This document shows, one piece after another, positions 16,396-64,000 of a stretch of DNA of 64,000 bases (the first letter of the stretch is position 1; each line of letters opens with the position of its first letter). Origin of the DNA: a virus; the IMG/VR virus record IMGVR_UViG_3300042402_003740, positions 1 to 64,000 of that record. The stretch is one strand, 5' to 3'. The notes beneath the pieces were generated by a model, which ran no database searches, was not told the origin of the DNA, and worked only from the letters and a program-made list of their open reading frames with translations. The translations under genes and the position numbers were made by a program.

Positions 16396-17067
16396 TTGAT
16401 GAATAAGTGCTTAATGTCGGGAATTGTAGCAGCCGTGTCGTGTGGCTCAGTAGCAAATGCAGAGTTCATAGTAGTCAACAATCCAGTTGTTGACACGGTT
16501 GGCTTCTACTCTGATGCATATAAGTCAAGTGGCTCATACACTTATGCACAAAGTGGAGCGCAAGGTTTTGATCTTGAGGATTCATACACAACTTCTTCAT
16601 TGAAGTGGTGGGGTTCATCCAACGGATTCAATGGTCAAGGTATTGGAAACATTACTGGATTCCAAGTTATTGTGTGGAGTTCAGACTTTAGTTCGCCAGT
16701 TAGTTCAACCAATATCAACATCAGCAACATTTCTGTTGTCGATACAGGCGAATTCAACTTCTTTGGTGAACCAGTTTATGAATTTTATGTACCATTTGTG
16801 ACTCAACTCGCCGCTGGTTCATATTACATGAATATTGGTGCTTACCTCAATGACTCTGCTGGCGATCAATTTGTTTGGTCACAAGGTCAGAATGTTCAAG
16901 ACTTCTGGTATACTGATGATAATGGACAGTATAATTGGGGAGATTGGCGACAACTTCCTACATTCATTGGCAACACAGCGGGTGGAGCATTTGTTCTCTC
17001 TGCTCCTACTCCTGGAGCAATTGCTCTTCTTGGTATGGCGGGTCTGATGAGTCGCCGCCGTCGTTAA
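16396..17067 (+). CDS. Secreted PEP-CTERM-like (exosortase-target) surface protein, Planctomycete/Phycisphaerae style
   Basis: N-terminal signal peptide ending ANA; C-terminus APTPG + hydrophobic helix + RRRR. SD spacing suggests ATG 16399 may be the true start. Confidence 0.85.
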   Translation: MMNKCLMSGIVAAVSCGSVANAEFIVVNNPVVDTVGFYSDAYKSSGSYTYAQSGAQGFDLEDSYTTSSLKWWGSSNGFNGQGIGNITGFQVIVWSSDFSSPVSSTNINISNISVVDTGEFNFFGEPVYEFYVPFVTQLAAGSYYMNIGAYLNDSAGDQFVWSQGQNVQDFWYTDDNGQYNWGDWRQLPTFIGNTAGGAFVLSAPTPGAIALLGMAGLMSRRRR

Positions 17068-17097
17068 TTTTACTAAAATAGTTTGATGAATTTGATG

Positions 17098-17128
17098 AAA
17101 CACCCCTGAGTAGTTTGGGGGTGTTTTT
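17098..17128 (+). terminator. Rho-independent terminator
   Basis: aaacacccc/ggggtgttt stem followed by a T run. Confidence 0.8.
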
Positions 17129-17156
17129 CTATACATAAAGATAAGGAGGTTCTAAT

Positions 17157-17282
17157 ATGGAACTATTATTTTCATCAACTCTTGGCACTATTTTCTACAC
17201 TATTGTTGTATTTACAGCAGGGGCACTAATCGGTGTTCCACTTTGGAATTGGTTAAATAAGAAATTACCTTGGAACAACTGA
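17157..17282 (+). CDS. 41-aa single-pass membrane peptide (not in the ORF track)
   Basis: TATACATA box at 17130, AGGAGG SD; MELLFSSTLGTIFYTIVVFTAGALIGVPLWNWLNKKLPWNN. Confidence 0.7.
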   Translation: MELLFSSTLGTIFYTIVVFTAGALIGVPLWNWLNKKLPWNN

Positions 17283-17304
17283 TAAGACAACAAAATAAAT
17301 AATA

Positions 17305-17329
17305 AGAAAGCCCCCTTGTGGGGCTTTCT
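17305..17329. terminator. Hairpin/terminator
   Basis: agaaagcccc-cttgt-ggggctttct perfect 10-bp stem. Confidence 0.65.
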
Positions 17330-17343
17330 GCATAAATAAAGGT

Positions 17344-17913
17344 ATGAGAGTAGTTGGTATTGATTACAGTATCCGATGTCCTGCTGTGTGCATCTTTGAG
17401 ACAAATGAAGCACAGCCTGTCTGGTATCACGAAAATTGCCAGATACACTTTCTCACCGAGAAGAAAAAGCACTGCTACCGGATCACTCCAAATGTGACAG
17501 GACACTATATGCCCCTGTATCGTGAACAGGATGATATAGACCGATTCAACAAGATATCTGATTGGGCATTAGGTTTGCTCAAAGAGGGAGATACCATAGG
17601 GATAGAAGACTATGCATTTTCTGCACAAGGAATGGTATATAAGATCGGTGAGAATACTGGTTTGCTCAAATATAAGATGTGGAATTATGGTTATAATTTT
17701 GAACTCGTATCCAACAGTAAGCCAAAGAAACTAGCCACAGGAAAGGGCAATGCAGACAAGCAGGGAGTCTGGGAGGCGTTTGTAGCCGAGACAGGGTGGA
17801 ATATTGACCACCATATCAAACAACGCTCACGAAAAATAACAAGTCCGCTATCGGATATAGCGGACTCGTATTGGATTTGCAAATGGCTATTTGAGAAGAA
17901 ATCTATTTCTTAG
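17344..17913 (+). CDS. RuvC-like (RNase H fold) nuclease/resolvase
   Basis: VVGIDYS, IEDY, ATGKGNADK, DIADSYWI; CATAAATA late box directly upstream. Confidence 0.75.
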   Translation: MRVVGIDYSIRCPAVCIFETNEAQPVWYHENCQIHFLTEKKKHCYRITPNVTGHYMPLYREQDDIDRFNKISDWALGLLKEGDTIGIEDYAFSAQGMVYKIGENTGLLKYKMWNYGYNFELVSNSKPKKLATGKGNADKQGVWEAFVAETGWNIDHHIKQRSRKITSPLSDIADSYWICKWLFEKKSIS

Positions 17914-18514
17914 TCTTTTGTTTCTCCGAAAATTTCTTCTTTGCCACTACTTTGTCATCATCAACAAATCCATCACCATTCTGGTCTTCAGGTTGCTTCC
18001 GACCTTGAAGGTAGTACCAGGCAAGCCCTACAACAACTAGTGAATAGAATAGCACAGCATACCAATTAATTTTGGTAATAGAAATCTCCGTGCCTATTGG
18101 TAGAGTGACTTCAGAACCAGCCTCTAGAACAACAGCAACAGAATCCGAAGTCTGCAAATAAGTATTTCCTGGTAGTATGACCTCTGTGCTCTTTGGTAGG
18201 ATAATCTCTTGTGGTTTGACTGTATCCAATTGCTTTGGTGAAAGATCAGCCACTTCAGAATTTGCTGGTTGTGGTTTGATAAAAGCAACTGTATCTTCTT
18301 CAAGAAGAACAGTTGTCTTTTCATCTGGATCAGTCTTTACCCAAGATCCCTTTGCAATTTCGGACTTTGTATCTTTAGGTACAACCGTAACTGTGGGTTT
18401 GTTTAGGGTATCTGGACTCTTTTCCATTGTTGGAACACTTTGAAAAAGAGAAGCCTTGCACGAAGCAAGAAAAAACAAGAGAGAAACACCTAATACTATA
18501 GCAAATGATTTCAT
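17903..18514 (-). CDS. Lipoprotein with a C-terminal transmembrane helix; unimolecular-spanin-like
   Basis: SD-supported start at 18514; lipobox LASC (Cys19); beta-rich repeats; TM WYAVLFYSLVVVGLAWYYL; basic tail. Confidence 0.6.
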   Translation of the reverse strand: MKSFAIVLGVSLLFFLASCKASLFQSVPTMEKSPDTLNKPTVTVVPKDTKSEIAKGSWVKTDPDEKTTVLLEEDTVAFIKPQPANSEVADLSPKQLDTVKPQEIILPKSTEVILPGNTYLQTSDSVAVVLEAGSEVTLPIGTEISITKINWYAVLFYSLVVVGLAWYYLQGRKQPEDQNGDGFVDDDKVVAKKKFSEKQKTKK

Positions 18515-18524
18515 ATAGAACTCC

Positions 18525-18962
18525 TTATGATTTATTTCCTGCGGCGGCTGAACCAAAGTAGAAACCGATAATACTCAATAGAATTTGTCTGTTTTCTTGT
18601 GTGAACAGGTATCCATTAACTGTTTGGAATGCCACCTCTGTTGATTCTGGAATCAGACCAAACACCCATTCGGGATTTGTCTTTTCTACTTCTACAACCG
18701 TTGGTATGCCAAAGAATGGCAAGACAAAAGGTGCTGCAATAGTCCCAAACAGAACCATCAGCACTATGAGTTGTCTGACAGTTTTTCCTGCATCAACAGG
18801 TACTCGCTTTACGGCAGCATTTTGATTGTCATTTGTTCGCTTATTAGCAGTCAACAGACGATCAAACGCTTCTTTTTCGGCCTGACGCTTCTCAGCCATG
18901 TGACGGAAGATAAATCCCGTCGCACTTCCACCAATGAGTGTTATCAGTTCGGTTGGTATCAT
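18525..18962 (-). CDS. Holin-like multi-TM membrane protein
   Basis: N-terminal hydrophobic stretch, coiled linker, central TM, and C-terminal 'LLSIIGFYFGS' typical of 3TM holins. Confidence 0.6.
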   Translation of the reverse strand: MIPTELITLIGGSATGFIFRHMAEKRQAEKEAFDRLLTANKRTNDNQNAAVKRVPVDAGKTVRQLIVLMVLFGTIAAPFVLPFFGIPTVVEVEKTNPEWVFGLIPESTEVAFQTVNGYLFTQENRQILLSIIGFYFGSAAAGNKS

Positions 18963-20185
18963 TAGTTTGCCTCCTTGAATGGGTCTTTTGCGTTGAACCC
19001 ATCAAGTTCTTCCTTACGAATATTTGCTGCAAACTGTTCTAGACGATTCTTTGGAATCTTCAGACCGGAGATAAGCGTGTAAAGACGAAGTGTGGGCTTT
19101 TCGTCTTCGTAGATGCCACGGTGCAGAGTTGCACTCGGACATAGTGAAGACAGTGTATCGAATCCATAGGAAAGACTGTCCATCAATCCTGGTGTATTCT
19201 CCATTATTTCCTTGCCACCAACGGCGCAACAAGCAGCATAGGTTGCTTCTGAAATATCTAATTCTGCAAGCAAGGTCTTGTCTACATTAGACTTGATTGC
19301 TCCAGAAATCTTTGTTTCGTGTGCTGGTTCTTTTTTGTCACCATCACTTTTAACAGGATCGAGTTTAGAAACACCCATGACCATTGTTCCACCACAGCGA
19401 AGCACGGTTGCATAGTCTGTTGGGTCGAAAGAGGTATATGGGGAAGCGTGTTTAGAAAGCACATTGAAGATATGGAATAGTCCTGATACAGTATTGTTTA
19501 TAGTTGACCAGAACTCTTTGACTGTAAGATTCTTGTACATCTTTTCAATCTTTGAGTTATCAAGAATGATAAGAGGAGAGATCTCTTTCCGTTCTGCTTG
19601 TCCACCGACTTGCTTCAACACACGATATGCATTGAAGGAAACCTTTGGAGAGGCTGCTTCACCACGGGTGGGAAGAGACATCACAACACCTACACGCTCT
19701 TCTGGTTTGTCATGTCCGATGAACTTCATGTACTTCTTTGCAATGTCGATAAGCACAAGTGAAGATCCGCTACCGCTACCGCCTCCTGCACCAATGCAAA
19801 CCATAATGTGGTCAACTTTTGTTCCATATGTTTTACGCATAAGATCAAAAATCTGCTGCTTGTATTTCATAGCAGCAGATGCACCACGCTCCATGTCTTT
19901 TCCTGCTCCCTCTTCACCGATATCCAAGAGCATTTTCTGTGCAGCAGGAATGTCCAAGCGGTCTAGATCTTGTCTTGAAGTATTTACGGCAATGCACTTC
20001 TTGTAGCCACGGTCATAGAAAGCCTTTGCAAGACGACCTCCACCTTGACCTGAACCAATCCATGCAAACACATGGGAACCACCGCTTTGGTCTTCAACGC
20101 ATTGTTCCGTTGAATCTGGTTCCTTGTAGTCTTCTAACTCAAGATCGGGTATCTCTAGATCTGGTACATCTGGTAACTCATCCAT
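18962..20185 (-). CDS. Tubulin/FtsZ-superfamily GTPase
   Basis: GSGQGGGR (T1), AVNT, GAGKD (T3), GAGGGSGSG (T4 signature), LDN (T6), SFDPTDY (T7); acidic N-terminal tail. Confidence 0.92.
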   Translation of the reverse strand: MDELPDVPDLEIPDLELEDYKEPDSTEQCVEDQSGGSHVFAWIGSGQGGGRLAKAFYDRGYKKCIAVNTSRQDLDRLDIPAAQKMLLDIGEEGAGKDMERGASAAMKYKQQIFDLMRKTYGTKVDHIMVCIGAGGGSGSGSSLVLIDIAKKYMKFIGHDKPEERVGVVMSLPTRGEAASPKVSFNAYRVLKQVGGQAERKEISPLIILDNSKIEKMYKNLTVKEFWSTINNTVSGLFHIFNVLSKHASPYTSFDPTDYATVLRCGGTMVMGVSKLDPVKSDGDKKEPAHETKISGAIKSNVDKTLLAELDISEATYAACCAVGGKEIMENTPGLMDSLSYGFDTLSSLCPSATLHRGIYEDEKPTLRLYTLISGLKIPKNRLEQFAANIRKEELDGFNAKDPFKEAN

Positions 20186-20197
20186 TTTTATCTCCTT

Positions 20198-21454
20198 TTA
20201 CCATGAATATGATATTTCTGTAGTTTCTAATCCGAAAAATTCAAGCACGGCTGCGATACCTTTTGCAAACAGGCGAGCAATCATACTTAAAACTGCCTTT
20301 ACGACACTTATGAACTGTTTGTATGCATTAGCAACAGCACTTCCTGCCGATTTGATAAGACTTACGGTTGTATCCAAAACACCTTCTGTAAGGCAAGCAT
20401 ACTCAAAATCTTGGTGCAAAGCCTTCTCAATAATCATAAAAGCCGAGTATTGCTGTGGAGAGAGTTCCCATGTTTCTCTTATGTCCACACGGAGCGATCC
20501 ACCGCCTTCTTCTCCACGATCACGGATGTTCATACGAAATGCACTAAAATGCGAGTCAATGAATTCATCAATGTCCAATATGCGAAGGTTGCCCTTTTCA
20601 TTCCATATCATAAACCAGTCAGCACTTCTATCTTTTTCTGATGGGATGTACCGTTTTTCTCCTGAAGCAAACTCTTTGAAGATTTTCTTCCTGATAGGGG
20701 ATGATGCCATGAAGTTTGTGATATTTTGAGTTATTGCTGGTCTTATACCAGACATCTGTAGGAATTTCTGAACAGCCCTCATTTGAGCAACAGAAGGAAT
20801 ACCCGATCCTGCTTTCAGTCCTAGTAGAGCAGAAAGAGAGGAGTCGAAGTCCTTTTGTCCGTATTTACTACGAAGGGTGTAATAGTTTTCTTTTGATAAT
20901 ACAGAAGATATGACCTTACGAACGGCTTTGACCGCTTCATTGTTTTGACCGAGGGCAGCAGAGATAACAGCATTGGCTTCTCCTGCTTTTGCCGATGCAA
21001 CCTGTGCATCTCCCTCTTTTTTCATGCTTACACGCATTTTTCCATTTAGTTGGGAAGAAATCACAATATCTGATTTAGGATCTCCATTGCACTTTCCATC
21101 ATCACACATATAGGTCTTGTATATGGGAGAGAGTACACTTGCCCCATCACTAGTTTTTTTGTTTTGGTGTACTTTTGCTCCCTTGACTGCGCCAGATACT
21201 AGTTCAATATTCTCTGCACACTTCTGTGCAACCGCCATTGCAGCGGATGATTGATAACTGGATATGTCTGTCTTTTTTAGAAGAGCAGCAACCAAATCAG
21301 ATTCAAATCTGGTTGGATTAATAACAGAACTGCTCTGCTTTGCAGAGTCAGATTGTGCTTTTAGTCTTGACGCTATGTCGGATATTCTGCTCAATCGTTC
21401 TTGCTCCGAGGCTTGAAGTACACCATTTCTTGAGACATGGTGTTTCTTAAGCAT
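20198..21454 (-). CDS. Hypothetical protein, PD-(D/E)xK-like nuclease fold possible
   Basis: FE...PKSD...VSMKK pattern. Confidence 0.5.
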   Translation of the reverse strand: MLKKHHVSRNGVLQASEQERLSRISDIASRLKAQSDSAKQSSSVINPTRFESDLVAALLKKTDISSYQSSAAMAVAQKCAENIELVSGAVKGAKVHQNKKTSDGASVLSPIYKTYMCDDGKCNGDPKSDIVISSQLNGKMRVSMKKEGDAQVASAKAGEANAVISAALGQNNEAVKAVRKVISSVLSKENYYTLRSKYGQKDFDSSLSALLGLKAGSGIPSVAQMRAVQKFLQMSGIRPAITQNITNFMASSPIRKKIFKEFASGEKRYIPSEKDRSADWFMIWNEKGNLRILDIDEFIDSHFSAFRMNIRDRGEEGGGSLRVDIRETWELSPQQYSAFMIIEKALHQDFEYACLTEGVLDTTVSLIKSAGSAVANAYKQFISVVKAVLSMIARLFAKGIAAVLEFFGLETTEISYSW

Positions 21455-21702
21455 ATTGTCTTTGAGGGATTCTTATAGAGATATCTTCTTATCTTGTGAG
21501 AGGTTGTACCCTTTTCCGTTGCGTCAAAGTATTTCCCCCATCTTTCCCATTTTTTGGTTCCACGCATGAGTTTTGTATACTCATCATTTGCCACATCAAA
21601 GACACGACAACCTCCAAAGTACTCTGGCTTTTGGGGTGGTATTGTTGGTTCCTGTGTTGTTGGGAATCCGGTGGTGTTTGTTACTGGTAAAGAGCCTTCC
21701 AT
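21391..21702 (-). CDS. Hypothetical protein
   Basis: CATACATA late box and GGAGG SD upstream. Confidence 0.65.
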   Translation of the reverse strand: MEGSLPVTNTTGFPTTQEPTIPPQKPEYFGGCRVFDVANDEYTKLMRGTKKWERWGKYFDATEKGTTSHKIRRYLYKNPSKTICLRNTMSQEMVYFKPRSKND

Positions 21703-21740
21703 ATTTCCTCCATTCTTTTGTATGTATGGAGCGGACTGGG

Positions 21741-22133
21741 TTAGGCTTTACCTAGATTTCTTAAAATGGAGACTACCTTCTGATCTAGAGGGATAGACAT
21801 GATATCTGCTTCTGGTATTTCGGATTGTGGTAGTGTATTCAGAAAAACCAAGAATGTCTTCAAAACAGAGTGCATTTGTGTAGGAAGCCTGTGAAACAGT
21901 ATCCTGCTTGAGCACTCTATTCCGAAGACATTCTGTAAGATAATTATATGGTTGAGTATGAGTCTTTCTTTTAAAACATCAGTATTGAGATATACCTGAA
22001 ACAGTTTTTTAATGTATTTGAGTCTATTCATGTCTTCGTGAAACTCTTCAATGCCTGTACAAGCAGGATTGGTATAGTGCTTCATGGCATACATGATATA
22101 GTTCTCATTCGTCAAAGACTCAAATTTCATCAT
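21741..22133 (-). CDS. Conserved T4-like phage hypothetical protein
   Basis: 'YAMKHY.NP.C...EEF.EDMNRLKYIKKL...LILNHIIILQNVFG', recognisable from marine and freshwater T4-likes. Confidence 0.7.
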   Translation of the reverse strand: MMKFESLTNENYIMYAMKHYTNPACTGIEEFHEDMNRLKYIKKLFQVYLNTDVLKERLILNHIIILQNVFGIECSSRILFHRLPTQMHSVLKTFLVFLNTLPQSEIPEADIMSIPLDQKVVSILRNLGKA

Positions 22134-25491: not shown

Positions 25492-26745
25492 CTATACTTT
25501 CCAGTTTTTCGGCAAATTGAAATTCTTTCTTGAGAAATCTAGTCGATCTACGAGTTTATATGCACGGTTGTTCATTCGGTTCACCACCACGAACCCTTCG
25601 GGGGGTGACGCTGTATATGTTCCGTTTTCTTGTGTAAATGAATCTAAACGCATCTTGGTCCGGCGGAGCCTGTCTATAACCAAAAGTTTGGCTTGTGAAA
25701 TGAGGAGGTGCAAGGCAAAGAGGCTGTCGTATTTGTTAGAATTTGACTCTATAGAGTCTAGCAAGGCTTTGGCGGCGGCAGTTCTTGCTTGTCTTGCATC
25801 ATCCTTTTTCACACCAACAGCGGTCTTTTCTATCTTTTCTTTCATATAGGAAAGAAATCCGCTACTGGAGCCTTGTGCAACTCCCTGTCGCACATTCGAA
25901 TTTATGTATATCATTAGATCGTCCACAAGACCCTTACTTTTCTGTAAAGAGTCCAAGAATTTTGCAGATTTCGCTCCTGTTCTTTCTATTTTTGCAAGTA
26001 GTATCTGTATTTCTTTCTTTTCTAAGGGATTCGCAGGGAGAGAGCAGGAACCTGTACCATCAGATCCCCCCTGTAGATTTGCATCAATAATCCACGCAGA
26101 AGCATTAGACTTCAAGTATGATATGTCAGGAGCAAAAGAAGGCGATAGGCTTGCAATCGTATCACCAGTGTACTTTGTATGAAAAACAACACCCATTTTT
26201 GCCTTTGCTATCTCTTTACCGATAGAGGAGTCGGCAGGAATGGCATAGGTAAGGGTGTTTGGGCGAAATGTAAGGTATTTTACTCCGTGTATCTCTTCGG
26301 TTTTGAGATCCTCATTTGTGAAGAGCATATCTCCCTGAAGAATTCCACGAATTCCAGAGTTTTTTAAATTTTTCAGAGCAATCTTTAGTTTTTCATTTAG
26401 ACCAGGAACAGGGTGGTTTTGGTCTATGTCTTTTGGTGTATAATTTATCTTTGGAGTTTTATTGAAAAGAGACTTTGTGGCAACAAAAAACTTACCATTT
26501 TCAGGATTTATTCCAACAATAATGGCAGGAGCACCGTCAAATTTTGTTGTAACACAAAAAGAAGCCTCTGCTTCATCCGAAAGTTCCAATACTTGTCGTA
26601 AGTAATCTGTCGCTGTCTTTATGCCAGAGGAACCCTGTAAGAGTATTGTGTCTTCGATGTGGGTAAGATGGGTAACACCACCAGAAGCCTTGTCTTCGGC
26701 TTCCTGTAATAGCAGCGTTTCCCCAAATTTAGTAAATGATAGCAT
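25492..26745 (-). CDS. Conserved T4-like protein (DUF6267-like, nucleotidyltransferase/ligase-like motifs)
   Basis: THLTHIED, KFDGAPA, QGD, PEGFV, KLVDRLDFS; N-terminus MLSFTKF..LLQE; CTAAATA late box at 26767-26773. Confidence 0.7.
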   Translation of the reverse strand: MLSFTKFGETLLLQEAEDKASGGVTHLTHIEDTILLQGSSGIKTATDYLRQVLELSDEAEASFCVTTKFDGAPAIIVGINPENGKFFVATKSLFNKTPKINYTPKDIDQNHPVPGLNEKLKIALKNLKNSGIRGILQGDMLFTNEDLKTEEIHGVKYLTFRPNTLTYAIPADSSIGKEIAKAKMGVVFHTKYTGDTIASLSPSFAPDISYLKSNASAWIIDANLQGGSDGTGSCSLPANPLEKKEIQILLAKIERTGAKSAKFLDSLQKSKGLVDDLMIYINSNVRQGVAQGSSSGFLSYMKEKIEKTAVGVKKDDARQARTAAAKALLDSIESNSNKYDSLFALHLLISQAKLLVIDRLRRTKMRLDSFTQENGTYTASPPEGFVVVNRMNNRAYKLVDRLDFSRKNFNLPKNWKV

Positions 26746-26776
26746 ACGGTTCTCCTTGTATGCTTGTATTTAGTAA

Positions 26777-48449: not shown

Positions 48450-48524
48450 AGGAAGCCCTCCGTGTATGTTTATTTAGGCTTTTTGCTAGTGAGGCGAGTT
48501 CTGTAATGTATTGGTGAAATGTTT

Positions 48525-55973: not shown

Positions 55974-56948
55974 TCATTTTACTCCGTATTGCTTGTCTAT
56001 TGATGCCCATTCACCCTTGCAGAAGTCTACGACTGCCTGTATGTAGGCGGTAATCTCGTTCGGGGTGATCTTGCCCATAGAGGGGTTGAAGCCGCTGCCT
56101 TTGCCCAGGCGACCCACACGCTCCATCTTGCCGATGCTCTTCTTGAAAGCCCTGGCAATGGCATCAACACGGGCAGGATCGAATTGCTCAGAAGTGCCGT
56201 CGTTCCTGCCGTAGTACTGGTTTGACCCGTTCTGTAGACCCGAGAGCACGGACATGACCATCTCTAGGCGGCTCATTGCCATGTCGCCGCTCTTCCAGTC
56301 TTTCAAGACCTCTTGTGCATAGACAAGCCACTCCTTGCGGTTCCTGAAACTCTCTGGCATCATGCGAAAGTGCTTCTGTGCCATTGTCTCGGGCTTGCCT
56401 GGTTTCTTCTCGTTTCCCCCAGCCTCGTCCAGTTCGACCGATTCTCCTACAAACTTCTTGCCCCGACCGCTCTTGAGGAATCCGTGTAGCCATGCCTGTG
56501 GATCTTTGCTGCCTGGATAGGTCTGTGGCAGTGGTTTACCGTGCAGTTCTCCGGTGATGCCCCCAAAGTAGTCTTCGTATTCCATAAAACCCACCTTTTT
56601 GCCACCCTTCAGGATGTCATAGTGGGTTGTGGACTGTGTGCCGTCCTCTGTTTTTTTCTTTTCCACCTTGGTTTTCTTTAGAGAATACTCCCCGACACCT
56701 TCGTGCAACCCAAGGGATTCCTTCACCACCTGTATCCCCTTGTAACGGCTCCGCACCAATTCTGCACCTGTAAGAACATCCACAAGATCCTCATAGTGGT
56801 AGTCTGTTGCAACAGCCTCGCTTGAATAGGGTCCCGCTACCTTCATCTTGCCACCAGACTTGTACACGGCATAGTACCCTTCAGGGTCAACCTTGCCTAT
56901 TCCTCTGGCGGCTTCGTCTAATCTTCTAATATCCTTGAATCGCTTCAT
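55974..56948 (-). CDS. Modular protein with a capsid-targeting-like leader; shares a module with the 22687-25365 protein
   Basis: MKRFKDIRRLDE; linkers ESLGLHE and ESVELDE. Confidence 0.7.
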   Translation of the reverse strand: MKRFKDIRRLDEAARGIGKVDPEGYYAVYKSGGKMKVAGPYSSEAVATDYHYEDLVDVLTGAELVRSRYKGIQVVKESLGLHEGVGEYSLKKTKVEKKKTEDGTQSTTHYDILKGGKKVGFMEYEDYFGGITGELHGKPLPQTYPGSKDPQAWLHGFLKSGRGKKFVGESVELDEAGGNEKKPGKPETMAQKHFRMMPESFRNRKEWLVYAQEVLKDWKSGDMAMSRLEMVMSVLSGLQNGSNQYYGRNDGTSEQFDPARVDAIARAFKKSIGKMERVGRLGKGSGFNPSMGKITPNEITAYIQAVVDFCKGEWASIDKQYGVK

Positions 56949-57814
56949 CTCTGCTTCTCCTCTAAATATTGGCTGTTGTAATCTTCGAATTTACGCAGTA
57001 CCGCCTCTCTGCCGTCAAAAACCTGTAGTTTTTGCTCTGGTGTAAGCAGCCGCCAGGCACCTGGTGACATTAGTGTTTCCCTACCATCGGTTGTTTTTTC
57101 TGCTAGTGGAACATAGCAGCGGCACTGTATTGGGGTCTTCTCTAATCTTACAATTTCAGACTCTGCGGGGTTTCCAAAGTGGACAAGATTAAGGCTTTCG
57201 TCCGGGGATATCTTGTACTCTAGAACAAAGTGTATGCGTTGCTGTTTCATCTGGTCAGACCACCAACTGTCTGTGACCCCTGTAAAGTCGCCTGTTGCAA
57301 ATCCTAGTGCCACTCTCTGTTCTGTCGTCCATGACTGTGCAACCGACCGGGCCTCGTAGCGTAGGGTTCCCTCTGCACACTGTAGTGGTCTTTTGCCCCT
57401 GTACAGGGTTGTGATTCTTTCAAATTTGAATGCATTGGCAAATCTCTTCACTCCAAACCCTTCGCCACGGTACACATTCCCGCTGTATCGTAGCCACGAT
57501 CCAGTCTTTCCACACCCCTGTATCATTCTCTTTATACGAAGAACAAGATCTTCAGGGGTGTAGTCCCGTTGAGCCTTGAATCCCATCATCCACTTGTTCA
57601 TGGTGTCTGCAAGCCCTGCAATCTCTTCGTTCTTTGCCTCTTTTGCTGCCCTCTCTATCCATTGCCAGCCTTTGCCTCTAAAATGGTCAATAGGAGAACC
57701 CTGAAACAGAGGAGGATTTGACCCGCCCAAGAGATGACACAACCCACGGGAGAAATCTATCTCTCCTCCACTCTTTGACTCTAGTATCTCTATGAATTGG
57801 CGGTAGCGTTTCAT
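56945..57814 (-). CDS. Putative ADP-ribosyltransferase (R-S-E clade, ExE) with a capsid-targeting leader
   Basis: MKRYRQFIEILE; VYRG, AQSWTTEQRVALGFA, AESEIV. Confidence 0.7.
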   Translation of the reverse strand: MKRYRQFIEILESKSGGEIDFSRGLCHLLGGSNPPLFQGSPIDHFRGKGWQWIERAAKEAKNEEIAGLADTMNKWMMGFKAQRDYTPEDLVLRIKRMIQGCGKTGSWLRYSGNVYRGEGFGVKRFANAFKFERITTLYRGKRPLQCAEGTLRYEARSVAQSWTTEQRVALGFATGDFTGVTDSWWSDQMKQQRIHFVLEYKISPDESLNLVHFGNPAESEIVRLEKTPIQCRCYVPLAEKTTDGRETLMSPGAWRLLTPEQKLQVFDGREAVLRKFEDYNSQYLEEKQR

Positions 57815-57815
57815 A

Positions 57816-58265
57816 TTAGTCGTCTACAGGTTCGTCGTGACCAGAGTGTGGATTGTACCGGGTCAGAGGGGTTCTGCGCCGTGACCGCTCACGCTCACGC
57901 TCGTCTCTTTCCCGCTCCCGCTGCCCCCGATCCCGCTCCTCGGCATCACGGCGGCTCTGGGCTTCACGCCCTGGTCGCTTCTTTCCCTCTACCCAATCGC
58001 TTGCATCGCTCCAGTTATCGAAATAGCGGAATTCGTCCTCCCACCGTGCACGGTATCGGGTTCCCCCACCTGTCTCTACCTCGTCAACCGAGCCGCTTCT
58101 CTGCCTTTCCTTCCCCTGGCGGTCTGCTGACTCCTCACCAGAGGTCTGTGCCCTCTTTGCCTTTTCGATTCCTAACTTGCGTCCAACCCGTATGGCTGTG
58201 TCACGGACTATGCCCTCTTTCAGAGTCTTGTCTACAGTTCTTCTAAATTCGGTGTAGTCTTTCAT
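57816..58265 (-). CDS. Arg/Glu-rich hypothetical protein with a capsid-targeting-like leader
   Basis: CATACATA late box at ~58301-58308, CAGGAG SD, MKDYTEF...LKE. Confidence 0.65.
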   Translation of the reverse strand: MKDYTEFRRTVDKTLKEGIVRDTAIRVGRKLGIEKAKRAQTSGEESADRQGKERQRSGSVDEVETGGGTRYRARWEDEFRYFDNWSDASDWVEGKKRPGREAQSRRDAEERDRGQRERERDERERERSRRRTPLTRYNPHSGHDEPVDD

Positions 58266-58389
58266 CCCGATCTCCTGTGTGTATTGCAGCCTTTTCCTAT
58301 ATGTATGAATACCCATTTTCTCCTCCAGAAACGGTTAGGGTTCCATTAGGAGGGTTAAAAAAGGCTTAAAAAAGGGGGTTGAGCGTGCA

Positions 58390-58701
58390 CTAACGGGGGG
58401 AAGGGGGATTGAATCCACCAGTACCGCTGTTGTATTCGATTCCTTCAAGTGATTTGCGGAATTCAACGGCTCTTTTCTCGGATTCGATCATCGGTGGTGG
58501 TTTGGGTGGGACGAATGGGAATCCCATGCGGGTGAGTGCGGGAGGCATACGGACACGGGGACGCTGCTGCCCCCAGCCACCCCAGACAGCGGGAGGCGGG
58601 GGATTCATATTAATAGGAAGATGGGGCTGCACTGCACCATTAAGATGCGCCTTCCGAGCCTCTTCACTCTGTAGCCATTCGTTGTATTTACTGCGGTCCA
58701 C
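58390..58701 (-). CDS. Pro-rich hypothetical protein (start uncertain)
   Basis: GTG start overlapping the end of the FmdB-like gene. Confidence 0.4.
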   Translation of the reverse strand: MDRSKYNEWLQSEEARKAHLNGAVQPHLPINMNPPPPAVWGGWGQQRPRVRMPPALTRMGFPFVPPKPPPMIESEKRAVEFRKSLEGIEYNSGTGGFNPPSPR

Positions 58702-58984
58702 TTCGGGTTCCCCTTTGCGAAAGCGAGCGGTCAATGTTCTCACGGACTCGGGGGTTGTACTTTCCGAGTTTGGAGCGCATGGCTTCCATTCTCTCTTTAA
58801 AAGCACCCGAGGGTTTAACGCTGCCATCCACACCCATAGTGGGGGAGTGTGACCACCCACGGACCACTTGGGGCTTGCCGCATTGGGGGCAGGGTTCACC
58901 GCAGGGCTTCTCTCGGTTTGCTATGGTTTGGATATCGTCCCACTGGTGGGCGCAATGGCGGCACTCGTATTCATAATTAGGCAT
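58688..58984 (-). CDS. FmdB-family zinc-ribbon protein
   Basis: MPNYEYECRHC...PCPQCG; GGAG SD. Confidence 0.8.
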   Translation of the reverse strand: MPNYEYECRHCAHQWDDIQTIANREKPCGEPCPQCGKPQVVRGWSHSPTMGVDGSVKPSGAFKERMEAMRSKLGKYNPRVRENIDRSLSQRGTRSGPQ

Positions 58985-59420
58985 AGGCTTTTGCTCCTCT
59001 ACGGGTATATAGTGGGGAATGGGGAGGGGGTAAATTCTCCAGAGTGGGGGGTAAATTGTGGGGGGCAGGGTATTCATAGGTTTTGTGTAGTGTGTGCAGG
59101 CTGAACTATTCCGAATGGGATCGAAAGGGGCAAATGCGGGTGGTTTTGAACCAAAATCACCAGATTCTGGTAAAATCAGCCAAAATTCTTCATTTTTACC
59201 ATTTCAGGCGTCCTGGGGTGACCAGGCACGCCCGGTGAGCCCGGTGAGCCCGGTGAACCTGGTCCAGCGATTTTCGAAATATTGGAATTTCGGCTAAAGT
59301 CTGCATTCCGTCCAGTCGATACCAGTAGAGCGAAGGCAAGAGATAGGGGAGGAATTCCACAGAATCTCGGATACGGATATCCGTGATTACCTGACAGAAC
59401 CCTAACAGGAGGGGCATTGG

Positions 59421-59528
59421 GGGTCCGATAATATCGCCCGCCCCGCCGTTTGCTGTAAGTCCTTATAAGACAGAGATTTACGCTGTTTTAGGGGTTGGGC
59501 TTGCATCCTGCGCCCGTTCGGGTATACT
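59421..59528 (+). promoter_or_regulatory. Probable early promoter module: 13-mer, GC box, 27-bp dyad, TTGCAT-N16-TATACT
   Basis: Elements shared with 62854-62963. Confidence 0.6.
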
Positions 59529-59610
59529 TGTGGGACGGGAATTCTACGCCCAGAGGGCATAATTCCTAAAAACTGCCGAATTCTGACTTTTTCTCAAAAA
59601 GACCAAAACC

Positions 59611-61956
59611 ATGCGAAACACGAAGAATACCGTTAATACCGTCCGTGAGGCTACCGCTCGACTTCTCGCCACCGAGAACATCACGGTCATCGAAGACCCG
59701 AAGGCTCCTTCGGCGTACTTCGACCTCAAGTCTCGTACCCTTGGCCTTCCTGTGTGGAAGGACATCACGCAGGAAATGTACGATATGCTTGTTGGTCACG
59801 AAGTCGGCCATGCCCTCTTCACGCCGAACGGAAACGGCGGTTGGGTTGAGTCTGCAAAGCGCATCGCTGCGGATGCGGGTTTCGCTGGCGACCGTGAGGC
59901 GGAAGCCGCTGCACAGTCGTTCCTCAATGTTGTTGAGGATGCCCGTATCGAGCGTCTCATCAAGGAACGCTACCCCGGTCTGCGTCGTGACTTCTTCACT
60001 GCGTACACGGAGTTTGCGAAGCGTGACATCTTCAAGATTGGTGGCCGTCCCCTCAGCGGTCTTGGTCTTGCCGACCGCCTGAACATCCACTTCAAGATCG
60101 GCTTTACGCAGCCTGTGCCGTTCTCCCCTTCGGAGCGCCAGTTCGTGGAGCGCATGGAGACGGCTGTGACTTGGGAAGAGGTTGTTGCGATTGCGAACGA
60201 TCTTTTCGAGTTTGAGTCGAATCCGCAGGGCAATCAGGGACAGGGCAGCACCCCGTCGAACCCCGGCGAGGGTGAAGAGGGCGAAGAGGGTTCGGCTTCG
60301 GCTTCGGGTAAGGGTGAGGGCAACGAGATGGGTCAGTCGGGCAAGGGCAAGGCTGACGACCAGACCAGTGGCGAGTCGGGTACTGGTGATGCTGATGGCG
60401 AGGGCGAATCGCAGGGCGAATCGCAGGGCGAATCGCAGTCTGAGGGTACGGACGCTTCGGGTAATGATGGCGACTCGGAGTCGCAGTCGGATGGTGACAC
60501 TGACATCAACGATACCCGTGATGGTTCAACCACGGAGCGCACTCGGGGTCATGGCGTGAACACGGCCCCCGTGAAGCCCCGTACCGCACAGACTGCGGGT
60601 TCGCTTGACAAGGCTTCGTCTGATCTTCGTGACCAGAATGCCCGTGGTCGCAACTACCTCTACATTCCTCGGGCGGTGAAGCCTGAAGGCTTCGTCATCC
60701 CGTTCGGGGAATTCATTGGTGCGTGTCGCCAGTGGGAAGCAAGCGGTCTGAAGAATCCTACCTACGGCAGCGACCCGAAGATCCGCAAGCGTTCGATTGA
60801 GGCGGTGGACAAGCAGATTCGTGACCTGGTCGAGGACACCCGTGGTTCGATCCAGGCGTTTGTCCGTGAGTTTGAGATGCTGAAGACTGCGGACGAACAC
60901 CGCCGCACTGTGGAGTCGAAGAGCGGTCGCCTTGACATGGATCAGGCGTGGAAGTACCGCATCTCGGAAGACCTCTTCAAGGTTGCTACGACGATGCGTG
61001 ACGGCAAGAACCACGGCTTTGTTATGTTTATTGACTGGTCGGGTTCGATGCAGCCGAACATGGAGCAGACGATGCGCCAGTTGTACATCCTCTTCCAGTT
61101 CTGCAAGAAGGTTGGCATCCCGTTTGATGTCTACGCCTTCGGTATCGGCCTCACGGATCGCTCGATGTTCCCGTCGCTTGAAGAGACGGGACGCAAGGCG
61201 AATCGCCTGGTGCTTGACGACAAGCGCAACGAAGTTCAGCCTGATGTGGAACTCCTCCACATCATGTCGAGCCGTGCGAACGCTCGGGATCTTCAGGATG
61301 CGTTCCGCTACTGCCTCTGCGCTACGAGTTACGGATACGGCGACTACCCGCCCGTGACCCTTGGCGGCTCGACTCCGCTTGACTCGACCGTTGTTGTCGC
61401 TCGGGACATTGTGAACGAGTTCCGCAAGGGGACGAAGGTGCAGATCGTCAACACCGTGTTCCTCACGGACGGCGATGCGACCGATGGCCTCTGCAACTAC
61501 GGAACGAAGGGACACCAGCACTACGCTGGTCCGACGATTCTTCGTGACGGCCACCGTGAGTGGGCTTCGGAGAATGCAATGTACAGCGGTGGTACTGCTC
61601 TCCTGCTCCAGTGGTTCAAGGCGAACACGGGAGCAAATCTTGTGGGCATCTTTGTGGCGGGTCGCTTCGGTCATGCGACTCACCACTTCGACCCGTCGAT
61701 GAAGCAGGAAGACCGTGCGCTTGCGGAGAAGCAGTTCAAGAGCGACGGTTGGTGTTCGGTGAAGGGTCTTGGGTTTGACCAGTACTTTGTCCTCCGTGGC
61801 AATGTGGTCGATACCGAGAAGGCGATGGACGAATTCGAGCAGCGTGACGGTGGCACGATGACCGCCACGCAGATCAAGAATGCGTACATGAAGGCGGTCG
61901 AGAGCCGTAATGGTGCCCGTGGCATGATCCACCGTTTCGTCAAGACGGTGGCCTAA
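59611..61956 (+). CDS. HExxH metallopeptidase-like + acidic linker + vWA (CobT-like) protein
   Basis: GHEVGH, NVVEDARIE, DWSGSM MIDAS, GSTPL, LTDGD. Confidence 0.85.
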   Translation: MRNTKNTVNTVREATARLLATENITVIEDPKAPSAYFDLKSRTLGLPVWKDITQEMYDMLVGHEVGHALFTPNGNGGWVESAKRIAADAGFAGDREAEAAAQSFLNVVEDARIERLIKERYPGLRRDFFTAYTEFAKRDIFKIGGRPLSGLGLADRLNIHFKIGFTQPVPFSPSERQFVERMETAVTWEEVVAIANDLFEFESNPQGNQGQGSTPSNPGEGEEGEEGSASASGKGEGNEMGQSGKGKADDQTSGESGTGDADGEGESQGESQGESQSEGTDASGNDGDSESQSDGDTDINDTRDGSTTERTRGHGVNTAPVKPRTAQTAGSLDKASSDLRDQNARGRNYLYIPRAVKPEGFVIPFGEFIGACRQWEASGLKNPTYGSDPKIRKRSIEAVDKQIRDLVEDTRGSIQAFVREFEMLKTADEHRRTVESKSGRLDMDQAWKYRISEDLFKVATTMRDGKNHGFVMFIDWSGSMQPNMEQTMRQLYILFQFCKKVGIPFDVYAFGIGLTDRSMFPSLEETGRKANRLVLDDKRNEVQPDVELLHIMSSRANARDLQDAFRYCLCATSYGYGDYPPVTLGGSTPLDSTVVVARDIVNEFRKGTKVQIVNTVFLTDGDATDGLCNYGTKGHQHYAGPTILRDGHREWASENAMYSGGTALLLQWFKANTGANLVGIFVAGRFGHATHHFDPSMKQEDRALAEKQFKSDGWCSVKGLGFDQYFVLRGNVVDTEKAMDEFEQRDGGTMTATQIKNAYMKAVESRNGARGMIHRFVKTVA

Positions 61957-61969
61957 AAGGAGGAATCGC

Positions 61970-62425
61970 ATGGCGCAATCAGGACAGGCTCTGTTGGAGA
62001 ACGCACGGGTGCAAGAGTTCCTGTCCCTGGTGCGTTCACAGTGCCGCAAGTGTAATGTCAAATTCGTGCTTGCCGATGCGGAGTTTGTCGGCAGCAAGAA
62101 GCAAGGGGAGCAACTGCTTGGGTTCTTTTGGGAACCCTCGCTACACCGCAGGGCACCAGGCGAACTGCGTGTGGCAACAAAGAACCTGCCTGTAAGCGAG
62201 TGGATCGTTACCCTCGCACATGAGTACGCACACTTTCTACAGTGGTTCCGAGATGATCCTGTTTACCATTGTGACTCTTATCTGGAGATGGAGATCGCAA
62301 CAGAGCGTGAAGCATTCGAGATCCTGAAGCGTTTCAAGATCCCCATCAACTACGAAACGGCGAAGCGCAAGTCAAAGAAGTACATTGCGAAGATTCGTCG
62401 TGAGGAAAAGGAAAACACCCTATGA
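61970..62425 (+). CDS. HExxH metallopeptidase-like protein (IrrE/ImmA-like)
   Basis: TLAHEYAHFLQW...E..TEREA; AGGAGG SD. Confidence 0.65.
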   Translation: MAQSGQALLENARVQEFLSLVRSQCRKCNVKFVLADAEFVGSKKQGEQLLGFFWEPSLHRRAPGELRVATKNLPVSEWIVTLAHEYAHFLQWFRDDPVYHCDSYLEMEIATEREAFEILKRFKIPINYETAKRKSKKYIAKIRREEKENTL

Positions 62426-62850
62426 ACAAGCGCAACATCACCATCATTACTCTCATCGTCCTCGGCATCCTCGCCTCGCTTGCTGCTGCGGTTCCCCCGC
62501 CCTCGGGCTACGACACAGATCGGATTCTCCATGCCATTCGTCTGACAGAGACTGGTGGTGAGCGTGACCCGGCGAATGCAGTGGGCGACGGTGGACGGGC
62601 GATTGGACCTTTCCAGATCCACCGTGGTTACTGGCAGGATGCACTTGAGCATGACCCGAGCATTGGTGGCGTGTATGCCGATTGCAAGAACGAAGAGTAT
62701 GCTCGTCGGGTCGTGCTGGCGTATATGTCCCGCTACTGCAAGGTGTGGACGGATGAGCGTGTTGCTCGTATCCACAATGGTGGTCCGGCGGGATGGAAGC
62801 GAGAGTCAACGCTAGGGTATTGGTCAAAGGTGCAGCGGCATCTTGACTAA
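62422..62850 (+). CDS. Secreted lysozyme-like protein (i-type/destabilase-like)
   Basis: Signal peptide; ET, GD.G.AIGPFQIH..YW.DA, ARIHNGGP.G, T..YW.KV. Confidence 0.7.
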   Translation: MNKRNITIITLIVLGILASLAAAVPPPSGYDTDRILHAIRLTETGGERDPANAVGDGGRAIGPFQIHRGYWQDALEHDPSIGGVYADCKNEEYARRVVLAYMSRYCKVWTDERVARIHNGGPAGWKRESTLGYWSKVQRHLD

Positions 62851-62853
62851 ACA

Positions 62854-62963
62854 GGGCGTGGCGGGGGGGCGGGGGCTGCCGTTATTATCGGACCCTTGGC
62901 GTAAGTGCTTGTAGTGTAAGGGTTTGCGTGGGACTTGACATAATCGCCCTTTTTTGGGACAAT
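62854..62963 (+). promoter_or_regulatory. Probable early promoter module: GC box, 13-mer (inverted), 27-bp dyad, TTGACA-N17-GACAAT
   Basis: Elements shared with 59421-59528. Confidence 0.65.
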
Positions 62964-62970
62964 CTTCGAT

Positions 62971-64000
62971 ATGCCTTGGAATAATCACCGCAACCGCTGG
63001 AATCATTCATCCGCCTTCTCTTCCGCTTACACTTCCGCTTACAATGCGGTTGCTGCTGCGGCTACCGCTGCGCTCTCTGGTTTTCCTCCCGCCGATCTGG
63101 TGGCTCGGCGTGTGATCCAGTGTCCCCACTCGACCCCGTTCAAGGGACTCGACTCCCGCTCTGATGCCGTGGTGCTTGATGTGCCGTTCGGCAAGCGTGG
63201 CTCGATTGAGATCCGCCAGTGGGTGAAGCACATCGGCGGTCGTTGGGACAAGGCGACGAAGCAGTGGACGCTCTCCCGTGCGAAGTGCACGCCTGATGCG
63301 ATCAAGATCATCAACGAACTGCGCCTGTACACGGGCAAGACGGTTGCTGCGCCGAAGGCGGCGTTCCTCCCCCGCATCGCCCGAGCGGGTTCCCGCATCA
63401 TCCTCAAGGTTCCCTACGAGAGCCGCCATGAGGCGAAGTCGGCGGGTGCGGCTTGGAGCGTGTCGGATCAATACTGGTATTTCACCGTTCCGCAGACCCT
63501 TGACCAGAAGTTCTCCGAGAAGGTTGCAGACTTTGAGGTGAAGGGATGGGTTTCGATTGAGCACACCGAGCGTGAGATCATCGAAGTTCTGAAGCGGGTT
63601 CACGGTATTCGTGCACCGTACACCACTACGGCGCAACTCCAGTTTGCTGTGCCGAAGGATGAGGCGGAAGCCCGTTCCAAGTGCTTTGCCGATCCCCTGC
63701 CGTTGATTGTCTCTCCTAGCAGGGTGCAGCACCAGATTCTCGCTGACGAGAAGCAGTTCATCGAGCAGGTGCTCCAAACGGAGTTTGCACAGGGTGGGCT
63801 GCATGACAGCGTGGCTACCCGCTATGCTCTGAAGAACAGTCATGGCTTGTACCACATTCTCACGCTCGGTCGTGGCGACCGAGTTCGTGTTTCGTTCGTG
63901 AAGGGTGTCGGCAGTGCAGACCACTCCTATATGCCGAAGGAAGACGGTCGGCGTGTGTGGGATGTGCTGGTGAAGCAGGGCTACGAGATGGTCGAGCGGA
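62971..64000 (+). CDS. Hypothetical protein with two DUF5710-like repeats; runs off the window (not in the ORF track)
   Basis: Open frame from ATG 62971: LDVPF...IGGRWDKATKQW and LKVPY..RHEAKSAGAAWS...YWYF; GC3-rich codon usage. Confidence 0.75.
   Translation, partial: MPWNNHRNRWNHSSAFSSAYTSAYNAVAAAATAALSGFPPADLVARRVIQCPHSTPFKGLDSRSDAVVLDVPFGKRGSIEIRQWVKHIGGRWDKATKQWTLSRAKCTPDAIKIINELRLYTGKTVAAPKAAFLPRIARAGSRIILKVPYESRHEAKSAGAAWSVSDQYWYFTVPQTLDQKFSEKVADFEVKGWVSIEHTEREIIEVLKRVHGIRAPYTTTAQLQFAVPKDEAEARSKCFADPLPLIVSPSRVQHQILADEKQFIEQVLQTEFAQGGLHDSVATRYALKNSHGLYHILTLGRGDRVRVSFVKGVGSADHSYMPKEDGRRVWDVLVKQGYEMVER

What the first reader, a model, noticed from the sequence alone, without database searches (positions are those of the whole stretch)
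17903..20185. Tubulin/FtsZ-family GTPase translationally coupled to holin-like and u-spanin-like genes
Seen: all GTPase loops are intact, including the catalytic T7 loop (FDPTD), and there is an unusual acidic N-terminal tail. Its stop overlaps the start of the holin-like gene (TAATG), which is followed by a lipoprotein with a C-terminal TM. Established: characterised phage tubulins are PhuZ of nucleus-forming jumbo phages and TubZ partition systems; Planctomycetes lack FtsZ. Inference: in a T4-like phage whose likely host has no FtsZ, a late-expressed tubulin with membrane partners could localise lysis, remodel the enlarged periplasm or transport capsids. Alternatively the two membrane proteins are filament anchors rather than lysis proteins.
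Basis: partly seen in the sequence, partly recalled or inferred. Interest (0 to 1): 0.82.

Follow-up and report, generated by a model that had tools for sequence, protein, structure and literature searches.

The report
Accessory TubZ-like tubulin in a freshwater T4-like phage
A lake-water T4-like phage carries a genuine tubulin/FtsZ-type filament gene whose only cellular relatives sit in the chromosomes of FtsZ-less Planctomycetota, but its tight join to the two downstream membrane genes looks like an accident of insertion, not a working partnership.

Summary
Window 18962-20185(-) encodes a 407-aa tubulin/FtsZ-superfamily GTPase with intact nucleotide loops and T7 loop. Its stop overlaps the start of a 145-aa membrane protein (TAATG). 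A lipoprotein with a C-terminal membrane anchor follows.

The proposed working link does not hold. Of 61 related phage contigs carrying the 145-aa gene, 43 keep the homologous lipoprotein and 52 keep RuvC. Only 5 have a tubulin, always together with the 418-aa upstream gene. Tubulin relatives at about 80% and 70% identity lack both membrane genes next to them. So p418+tubulin is an accessory cassette placed in front of an older, independent envelope or lysis-like pair.

The tubulin folds like TubZ. It belongs to a large uncharacterised family with an invariant N-terminal IPxLxLEDY-type motif. That family is sister to a chromosomal family found almost only in one order of Planctomycetota.

Most likely it is a GTP-driven cytoplasmic filament that organises phage DNA or assembly, or engages the host's homologous system.

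The parts
18962..20185 (-). TubZ-like tubulin/FtsZ-superfamily GTPase, 407 aa
   Evidence: Pfam PF00091 at 44.5 bits, cut-off 33. PDB by sequence: 4ei7, E 2e-17. AF2 pLDDT 84. Foldseek ranks TubZ first, then CetZ, then FtsZ.
20126..20152 (-). N-terminal acidic linear motif IPDLELEDY (residues 12-20), family hallmark, in a disordered tail
   Evidence: P13, L17 and E18 are invariant. A motif regex matches 78/78 phage and 75/92 cellular family members. Residues 1-26 have pLDDT below 50.
19763..19792 (-). T4 tubulin signature GAGGGSGSGS (residues 132-141)
   Evidence: G132, G134-136, G138, G140 and S141 are invariant.
19412..19429 (-). T7 catalytic loop FDPTDY (residues 253-258)
   Evidence: D254 and D257 are invariant. 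The loop aligns with FDASEF of TubZ/RepX 4ei7.
18960..18964 (-). TAATG stop/start overlap between the tubulin and the 145-aa gene
   Evidence: Read directly from the sequence.
18525..18962 (-). 145-aa membrane protein with 2-3 TM segments (M145); core gene of the wider phage group; holin candidate, unproven
   Evidence: phrog_38283, function unknown. More than 1000 homologues. Present in 61 related contigs, 56 of them without a tubulin. No holin family match.
17903..18514 (-). 203-aa lipoprotein (lipobox LASC) with a C-terminal TM and a conserved acidic/basic cytoplasmic tail; u-spanin-like architecture
   Evidence: The lipobox Cys, the TM and the tail are conserved at 39-93% identity. It follows M145 in 43 of 61 related loci.
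17839..17869 (-). Terminator-like hairpin closing the minus-strand block
   Evidence: 13-bp stem followed by a T-run; inverted repeat I3.
20198..21454 (-). 418-aa protein of unknown function that co-occurs with the tubulin (co-inserted cassette)
   Evidence: Present in exactly the 5 of 61 M145 loci that hold the tubulin. No family match.
17344..17913 (+). Convergent RuvC-like resolvase; fixed landmark next to the membrane pair
   Evidence: phrog_159, E 5e-31. Present in 52 of 61 M145 loci.

Best explanation
The 407-aa gene is a functional TubZ-like tubulin-superfamily GTPase. It is carried, together with the unknown 418-aa gene upstream, as an accessory cassette by one subclade of freshwater, distantly T4-like phages. 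The probable hosts are FtsZ-less Planctomycetota. The protein most likely assembles GTP-dependent filaments in the cytoplasm of the infected cell. By analogy with TubZ and PhuZ, these would position phage DNA or replication/assembly sites. The conserved N-terminal acidic motif would serve as a docking peptide for a subunit or an adaptor. The 145-aa membrane protein and the lipoprotein/TM protein downstream form an older, independently conserved envelope module, a plausible holin-plus-spanin pair. The TAATG overlap reflects compact insertion in front of that module, not a shared function. Shown: fold, motifs, family, distribution and gene-order history. Inferred: polymerisation, the cellular role and the role of the motif.
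For: Identity and intact catalytic loops. Relatives carry Pfam TubZ-like_C. The family is large: 822 hits and 297 clusters at 50% identity with E<1e-30. Accessory status: of 61 loci with the 145-aa gene, 43 have the lipoprotein and 52 have RuvC, but only 5 have the tubulin, and the same 5 have p418. Tubulins at about 80% identity are followed directly by RuvC, and those at about 70% by unrelated genes. Host link: 79 cellular loci, almost all from Planctomycetota MAGs and set among housekeeping genes. The family was found in 26/151 genomes of one order against 2/401 of the phylum sample. Carrier genomes lack FtsZ. Phage and cellular clades are sister groups (cell clade SH-aLRT 98, phage clade 87, the two together 94). 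A DNA-related role is suggested by the sister family. Many cellular members have Lys/Arg-rich tails before the motif. One long paralogue has a sigma54-activator/Fis-HTH-like C-terminus.
Against: There is no experiment on any member. No TubR-like gene and no iteron array lie near the gene, so a classical TubZRC mechanism is not supported. The phage is not a nucleus-forming type, so the PhuZ analogy is loose. In a second tubulin-bearing phage group the gene also sits between small membrane proteins, though these are not homologous to the ones here. This keeps a membrane link from being fully excluded. Expression timing is unknown. One 246-nt contig from a metatranscriptome library matches inside the gene, but that does not prove transcription.
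Confidence: 0.6

Rival explanations
1. The tubulin works with the two downstream membrane proteins, which act either as filament anchors or as a lysis system that the filament localises.
For: TAATG translational coupling. The lipoprotein has a conserved cytoplasmic tail that could reach a cytoplasmic partner. In the second phage group the tubulin is also flanked by small TM proteins.
Against: The membrane pair is conserved in 56 loci without a tubulin. Tubulin relatives at 70-80% identity lack the pair next to them. Homologues of the 145-aa protein occur in small podophages and siphophages that have no tubulin. The membrane neighbours of different tubulin clades are not homologous (hhalign probability at most 38%, over a TM segment only).
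Confidence: 0.08
2. Host-cytoskeleton takeover. The phage tubulin co-assembles with, replaces or poisons the host's own homologous TubZ-like filaments. It would use the shared N-terminal motif to engage the host adaptor, and so control host nucleoid or division during infection.
For: The phage family is sister to a chromosomal family confined to one Planctomycetota order, at about 50% identity. The N-terminal motif and the HRGIYED motif are shared by phage and cellular members. The segment before the motif is acidic in phages and basic in cells, a difference that fits a competitor lacking the DNA- or membrane-binding tail.
Against: About 50% identity is low for co-polymerisation. The cellular family is in only about 17% of sampled genomes of that order. 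The actual host of this phage is not identified. No data exist on the function of the host proteins.
Confidence: 0.25
3. TubZRC-type partition. The tubulin segregates the phage genome as a plasmid-like prophage or during pseudolysogeny, as in Clostridium phage c-st.
For: The closest solved folds are plasmid TubZ proteins. The best plasmid hits are annotated as replication/partition proteins.
Against: The replication set is T4-like and lytic in style. No TubR-like HTH gene is adjacent. No centromere-like repeats lie within 2 kb. The genome fragment shows no integrase or plasmid functions in the parts examined.
Confidence: 0.07

Closest known systems
TubZ (type III plasmid/prophage partition tubulin; B. 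thuringiensis pBtoxis, B. cereus pXO1-like RepX, Clostridium phage c-st)
   Same: It is the best match by sequence and by fold. Relatives carry Pfam TubZ-like_C. The T1, T4 and T7 loops are intact and there is a long C-terminal helix.
   Different: Identity is only 18-26%. No TubR gene and no tubC repeats are nearby. The conserved peptide is N-terminal and acidic, not a C-terminal tail. The carrier is a lytic-type T4-like phage, not a plasmid or plasmid-prophage.
PhuZ of nucleus-forming jumbo phages (Chimalliviridae)
   Same: Both are phage-encoded tubulin-superfamily proteins with an acidic terminal peptide, and both are expected to form cytoplasmic filaments.
   Different: No PhuZ entry appears among the top 50 Foldseek rows listed. 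A protein search of 50,697 phage records hit only Bacillus phage G, at 23% identity. The replication genes are T4-like. The acidic peptide is N-terminal. Chimallin was not searched for.
Chromosomal TubZ-like family of one Planctomycetota order (found here; I found no description of it)
   Same: It is the sister clade at about 50% identity. It shares the N-terminal IPxLxLEDY-type and HRGIYED motifs.
   Different: It is cellular and often present as tandem paralogues. Members have basic H1-like tails or a C-terminal sigma54-activator/HTH-like extension. It sits among housekeeping genes.
FtsZ and FtsZl1 (Tubulin_2) families
   Same: Same superfamily GTPase domain.
   Different: TIGR00065 ftsZ scores 48.9 bits against a cut-off of 295. 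Tubulin_2 scores 19 bits against a cut-off of 27. The protein lacks the FtsZl1 coiled-coil architecture described in PMC2875224.
Unimolecular spanin (phage T1 gp11 type) with a holin
   Same: The lipoprotein has an N-terminal lipobox and a C-terminal TM. It sits right after a small multi-TM protein, and the pairing is conserved across many phages.
   Different: No endolysin is nearby. None of four common endolysin families is found in the 92-kb fragment. The 145-aa protein matches no holin family. The conserved cytoplasmic tail is, from my own knowledge, not a usual spanin feature. No functional test exists.

Membership tests
Tubulin/FtsZ superfamily | GTPase domain above the Pfam PF00091 gathering score | tested here: met
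   44.5 bits against a cut-off of 33; 45.7 bits on the DNA.
Tubulin/FtsZ superfamily | Glycine-rich T4 signature and T7 loop acidic residues | tested here: met
   GAGGGSGSGS is present, and D254 and D257 are invariant in the family alignment.
Tubulin/FtsZ superfamily | Two-domain tubulin fold | tested here: met
   AF2 pTM 0.85. Foldseek gives E 1e-18 to 1e-23 against TubZ, CetZ and FtsZ.
TubZ (type III partition) | TubZ-like C-terminal domain and overall fold | tested here: met
   The top Foldseek hits are TubZ. PF22453 reaches its cut-off of 26 bits in one of three relatives scanned (P0108, 27.4 bits); P0021 scores 25.7 and P0120 20.9. The window protein itself gave no PF22453 hit at E<=0.1.
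TubZ (type III partition) | Adjacent TubR centromere-binding protein | tested here: not met
   Neighbours have no HTH or DNA-binding family hit. The upstream p418 matches no known family.
TubZ (type III partition) | tubC iteron array near the operon | tested here: not met
   Only chance-level 12-nt two-copy repeats occur in 17000-22000.
PhuZ | Carried by a chimallin-encoding, nucleus-forming jumbo phage | not tested
   Chimallin was not searched for. The replication genes are T4-like and the record is only 43% complete.
PhuZ | Close sequence or fold similarity to PhuZ | tested here: not met
   No PhuZ-bearing phage was hit by tblastn of the phage collection. PhuZ is absent from the listed top Foldseek rows.
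FtsZ | TIGR00065 equivalog score | tested here: not met
   48.9 bits against a cut-off of 295.2.
FtsZl1 / Tubulin_2 | Pfam PF13809 above its cut-off | tested here: not met
   19 bits against a cut-off of 27.
u-spanin (17903-18514) | N-terminal lipoprotein signal with a lipobox Cys | tested here: met
   L-x-S-C is conserved in all 5 aligned homologues. A lipobox was flagged in most related loci.
u-spanin (17903-18514) | C-terminal transmembrane domain | tested here: met
   The NWY...WYY hydrophobic segment is conserved.
u-spanin (17903-18514) | Placed in a lysis cassette with an endolysin and a holin | tested here: inconclusive
   It always follows the 145-aa membrane protein. No endolysin is nearby, and four endolysin families are not found in the 92-kb fragment.
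u-spanin (17903-18514) | Disrupts the outer membrane at lysis | not testable with these tools
   Needs complementation of lambda Rz/Rz1 mutants.
Holin (18525-18962) | Match to a known holin family | tested here: not met
   No Pfam or NCBIfam hit. phrog_38283 has unknown function. The atlas lead to GTA_holin_3TM (14% of one neighbouring cluster) was not borne out when 12 diverse homologues were scanned.
Holin (18525-18962) | Small phage membrane protein with one or more TM segments next to other lysis genes | tested here: inconclusive
   It has 2-3 hydrophobic segments. It is followed by a spanin-like gene. In small phages it sits after the tail-fibre genes. No endolysin is adjacent.

The most novel reading that the evidence does not exclude
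Phages and one order of FtsZ-less Planctomycetota share a distinct, undescribed tubulin clade, marked by the N-terminal IPxLxLEDY-type peptide and the HRGIYED motif. [quoted passage not shown]
Probability: 0.2. Interest if true: 0.85.

Novelty: new variant of a known kind. Interest (0 to 1): 0.6.

Why it matters
To my knowledge, the only characterised phage tubulins are PhuZ of nucleus-forming jumbo phages and TubZ partition systems. This is a separate and abundant family. It has hundreds of sequence clusters and no cultured representative. It occurs in distantly T4-like phages of lakes and oceans and carries a different conserved terminal peptide.

Its sister group is a chromosomal family in Planctomycetota. 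A 2025 review of that phylum states that its members divide without FtsZ and mentions no tubulin (PMC12673574). The locus therefore gives a concrete, clonable entry point to two questions. What do non-nucleus-forming phages do with a tubulin? Do some FtsZ-less planctomycetes use a TubZ-like cytoskeleton?

The analysis also removes a tempting but unsupported idea, tubulin-guided lysis. It identifies a widely conserved small-membrane-protein/lipoprotein pair as a lysis-gene candidate for this phage group.

Tried and rejected
Neighbourhoods came from the search for related loci instead.

**Searches that found nothing**
- T4 late promoter TATAAATA: none in the window, with 1.5 expected by chance.
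- Centromere-like iterons near the gene: none.
- Endolysin families PF00959, PF01510, PF13539 and PF01464: none in the 92-kb fragment, which is 43% complete, so this says little.
- Endolysin next to the 145-aa homologues in phages P8625, CRP-4 and HTVC024P: none by Pfam.
- Lipoprotein against the phage collection: no match.
- PEP-CTERM family hit for 16396-17067: none in Pfam or NCBIfam.

**Leads that did not hold**
- GTA_holin_3TM for the 145-aa protein: no Pfam hit in 12 diverse homologues.
- Homology between the membrane neighbours of different tubulin clades: none by hhalign.
- p418 in the ESM atlas: only unnamed viral clusters.

**Uninformative results**
- The 145-aa gene was not found in five contigs of the 80%-identity tubulin clade, but these are only 15-27% complete.
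- RNA evidence: one metatranscriptome library holds a single 246-nt exact contig inside the tubulin gene. This shows neither transcription nor co-transcription.
- Transfer direction: phage and cellular clades are reciprocally monophyletic and the outgroups sit on long branches, so no donor can be named.
Full report
**What is there**

The window is the first 64 kb of a 92,327-bp IMG/VR virus record that CheckV rates 43% complete. It carries T4-type replication genes: family B DNA polymerase, UvsX, gp41-like helicase, gp61-like primase and a ribonucleotide reductase. The polymerase is about 50% identical to that of T4-like cyanophages.

Nearly identical DNA occurs in lake and freshwater metagenomes from more than a dozen studies. 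Contigs from three independent studies span the whole p418-tubulin-M145-lipoprotein stretch with only 6-28 differences. The arrangement is therefore real.

Three minus-strand genes match the finding:
- 18962-20185, 407 aa.
- 18525-18962, 145 aa.
- A third gene whose true start is the ATG at 18514 behind an AAGGAG site, giving 203 aa.

The first two overlap as TAATG. A 13-bp hairpin with a T-run follows the third gene.

**The tubulin**

The protein passes the Pfam Tubulin threshold, 44.5 bits against 33. By sequence its best solved relative is B. cereus TubZ/RepX, E 2e-17, ahead of CetZ and FtsZ. An AlphaFold2 model built on 19 homologues has pLDDT 84 and pTM 0.85. Its best Foldseek matches are TubZ structures (E 1e-21 to 1e-23, TMq about 0.72), then CetZ and FtsZ.

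Relatives at 53-72% identity hit Pfam TubZ-like_C, one of the three scanned reaching its cut-off. The protein is far below the FtsZ equivalog cut-off (48.9 against 295 bits) and below the Tubulin_2 cut-off.

The T1 loop, the T4 signature GAGGGSGSGS and the T7 residues D254 and D257 are invariant or nearly so across the family. Two further invariant features mark the family: an N-terminal peptide IP(D/T)L(E/D)(I/L)E(D/E)Y in a disordered tail, and HRGIYED near the C-terminus.

The family is large. A search returned 822 hits, and a profile search found 297 clusters at 50% identity with E<1e-30. Among 50,697 phage records, only Bacillus phage G matched, at 23% identity. PHROGs lists the nearest family as function unknown. 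I found no paper describing this family.

**Is the link to the membrane genes conserved?**

It is not, and the evidence comes from both directions.

Starting from the tubulin: contigs with a tubulin at 90% identity or more keep the trio. At about 80% identity RuvC follows the tubulin directly. At about 70% identity unrelated genes follow.

Starting from the 145-aa protein: it belongs to a family of more than 1000 sequences. Among 61 related viral contigs that carry it:
- 43 keep the homologous lipoprotein/TM gene.
- 52 keep the convergent RuvC.
- Only 5 hold a tubulin within 4 kb.
- The same 5 hold the 418-aa upstream gene.

The common order is DUF7207, cytidylyltransferase-like gene(s), M145, lipoprotein, then RuvC on the opposite strand. 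The simplest history is that a p418+tubulin cassette was inserted just upstream of a pre-existing pair, and the overlap is a by-product.

More distant homologues of the 145-aa protein occur in small phages of Verrucomicrobia, Roseobacter and Pelagibacter that have no tubulin.

A second tubulin-bearing phage group has contigs up to 178 kb. Its T4-like terminase is 43% identical to those of Microcystis and Flavobacterium myophages. There the tubulin sits between other small membrane proteins, just before the terminase and portal genes. Those proteins show no homology to the ones here. I treat this recurrence as a weak residual hint, not as support.

**What the two membrane genes are**

The lipoprotein keeps its lipobox cysteine, its C-terminal TM and an acidic-then-basic cytoplasmic tail across homologues that are only 39-47% identical. 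In more distant phages the gene after M145 is again a small lipobox-plus-TM protein, though not homologous.

This matches the u-spanin architecture. A multi-TM protein followed by a spanin-like gene is what a lysis cassette looks like. However:
- No endolysin is nearby.
- No holin family matches.
- Nothing has been tested.

I rate a lysis role as plausible, a little over even odds, and unproven.

**Cellular relatives and host**

A scan of one genome per prokaryotic species returned 79 loci at 44-53% identity. Almost all come from MAGs titled Phycisphaerae, Sedimentisphaerales, Anaerohalosphaeraceae, Pirellulales or Planctomycetota. A few are titled Omnitrophota or Aegiribacteria.

These genes lie among housekeeping genes such as rpe, accD, pgk, hisB, cysS and ruvC. 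They are often tandem paralogues, and one lies on a 2.96-Mb chromosome.

The family was found in 2 of 401 sampled genomes of that phylum but in 26 of 151 genomes of one GTDB order. Five carrier genomes have no FtsZ above the cut-off. The only weak FtsZ-model hits are these genes themselves.

In trees, the cellular clade is monophyletic (SH-aLRT 98-99). All phage sequences fall outside it as its sister (phage clade 87, the two together 94). The tree was a quick search and the outgroups are long, so no donor or direction can be named.

Cellular members usually carry a Lys/Arg-rich tail before the shared motif, whereas phage members carry an acidic one. One long paralogue ends in a sigma54-activator/Fis-HTH-like region. 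This points to DNA-associated roles for the sister family.

**Mechanism**

The best-supported reading is a GTP-dependent, TubZ-like cytoplasmic filament encoded by an accessory cassette. It would organise phage DNA or assembly sites, with the N-terminal peptide acting as a docking element.

A serious rival is that it plugs into or competes with the host's homologous system. A TubZRC-type partition role is unlikely, because no TubR-like gene and no iterons are present and the replication set is of the lytic T4 type.

Expression timing is open. There is no TATAAATA. A CTAAATAC motif lies 28 nt upstream of the first gene of the minus-strand block (start at 26745) and of another gene (start at 48449). 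A terminator-like hairpin separates that first gene from the rest of the block.

**Limits**

All function is inferred. The trees are quick searches. TM and lipobox calls are simple hydropathy and pattern rules. ORF starts in the MAG loci were taken as the longest frame.

Noticed in passing
Loci L088-L166 (for example L123:5989-9031, L140:5137-7128, L124): One GTDB order of Planctomycetota has a chromosomal TubZ-like tubulin family. It was found in 26/151 sampled genomes of the order and 2/401 of the phylum sample. It is often present as tandem short and long paralogues, with Lys/Arg-rich N-terminal tails, and one long form has a sigma54-activator/Fis-HTH-like C-terminus. Five carrier genomes lack canonical FtsZ. 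I found no description of it in the papers searched.
   Followed up: partly
Loci L034-L087 (for example L036:1833-8334): A second, tightly related phage group has contigs up to 178 kb and a distantly T4-like terminase. It carries the tubulin in a fixed order: 60-aa TM protein, 105-aa N-terminal-TM coiled-coil protein, tubulin, 126-aa signal-peptide-plus-C-terminal-TM protein, two unknown genes, then terminase and portal.
   Followed up: partly
window 16396-17067 (+): A secreted protein ends in a PTPG-hydrophobic-RRRR tail that resembles a PEP-CTERM sorting signal. It gave no Pfam or NCBIfam PEP-CTERM hit. It is present only in the closest relatives.
   Followed up: partly
window 26766-26773 (-) and 48470-48477 (-): A CTAAATAC motif lies about 28 nt upstream of the start codons at 26745 and 48449. 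From memory it resembles the late-promoter core reported for T4-like cyanophages. The canonical TATAAATA is absent from the window.
   Followed up: partly
window 56000-64000 and on to about 75 kb of the record: G+C rises from about 0.41 to 0.52-0.59, and the genes there look unlike the rest. It could be a mosaic region, an acquired island or an assembly join.
   Followed up: no
window 20198-21454 (-): This 418-aa protein of unknown function is inherited strictly together with the tubulin, in 5 of 5 loci. It is the most likely dedicated partner, if there is one.
   Followed up: partly
window 17903-18010 (-), lipoprotein residues about 170-203: The cytoplasmic tail after the TM holds a conserved DxDGDGFVDDD-type acidic run followed by a Lys-rich end. 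This is unusual for a spanin.
   Followed up: partly
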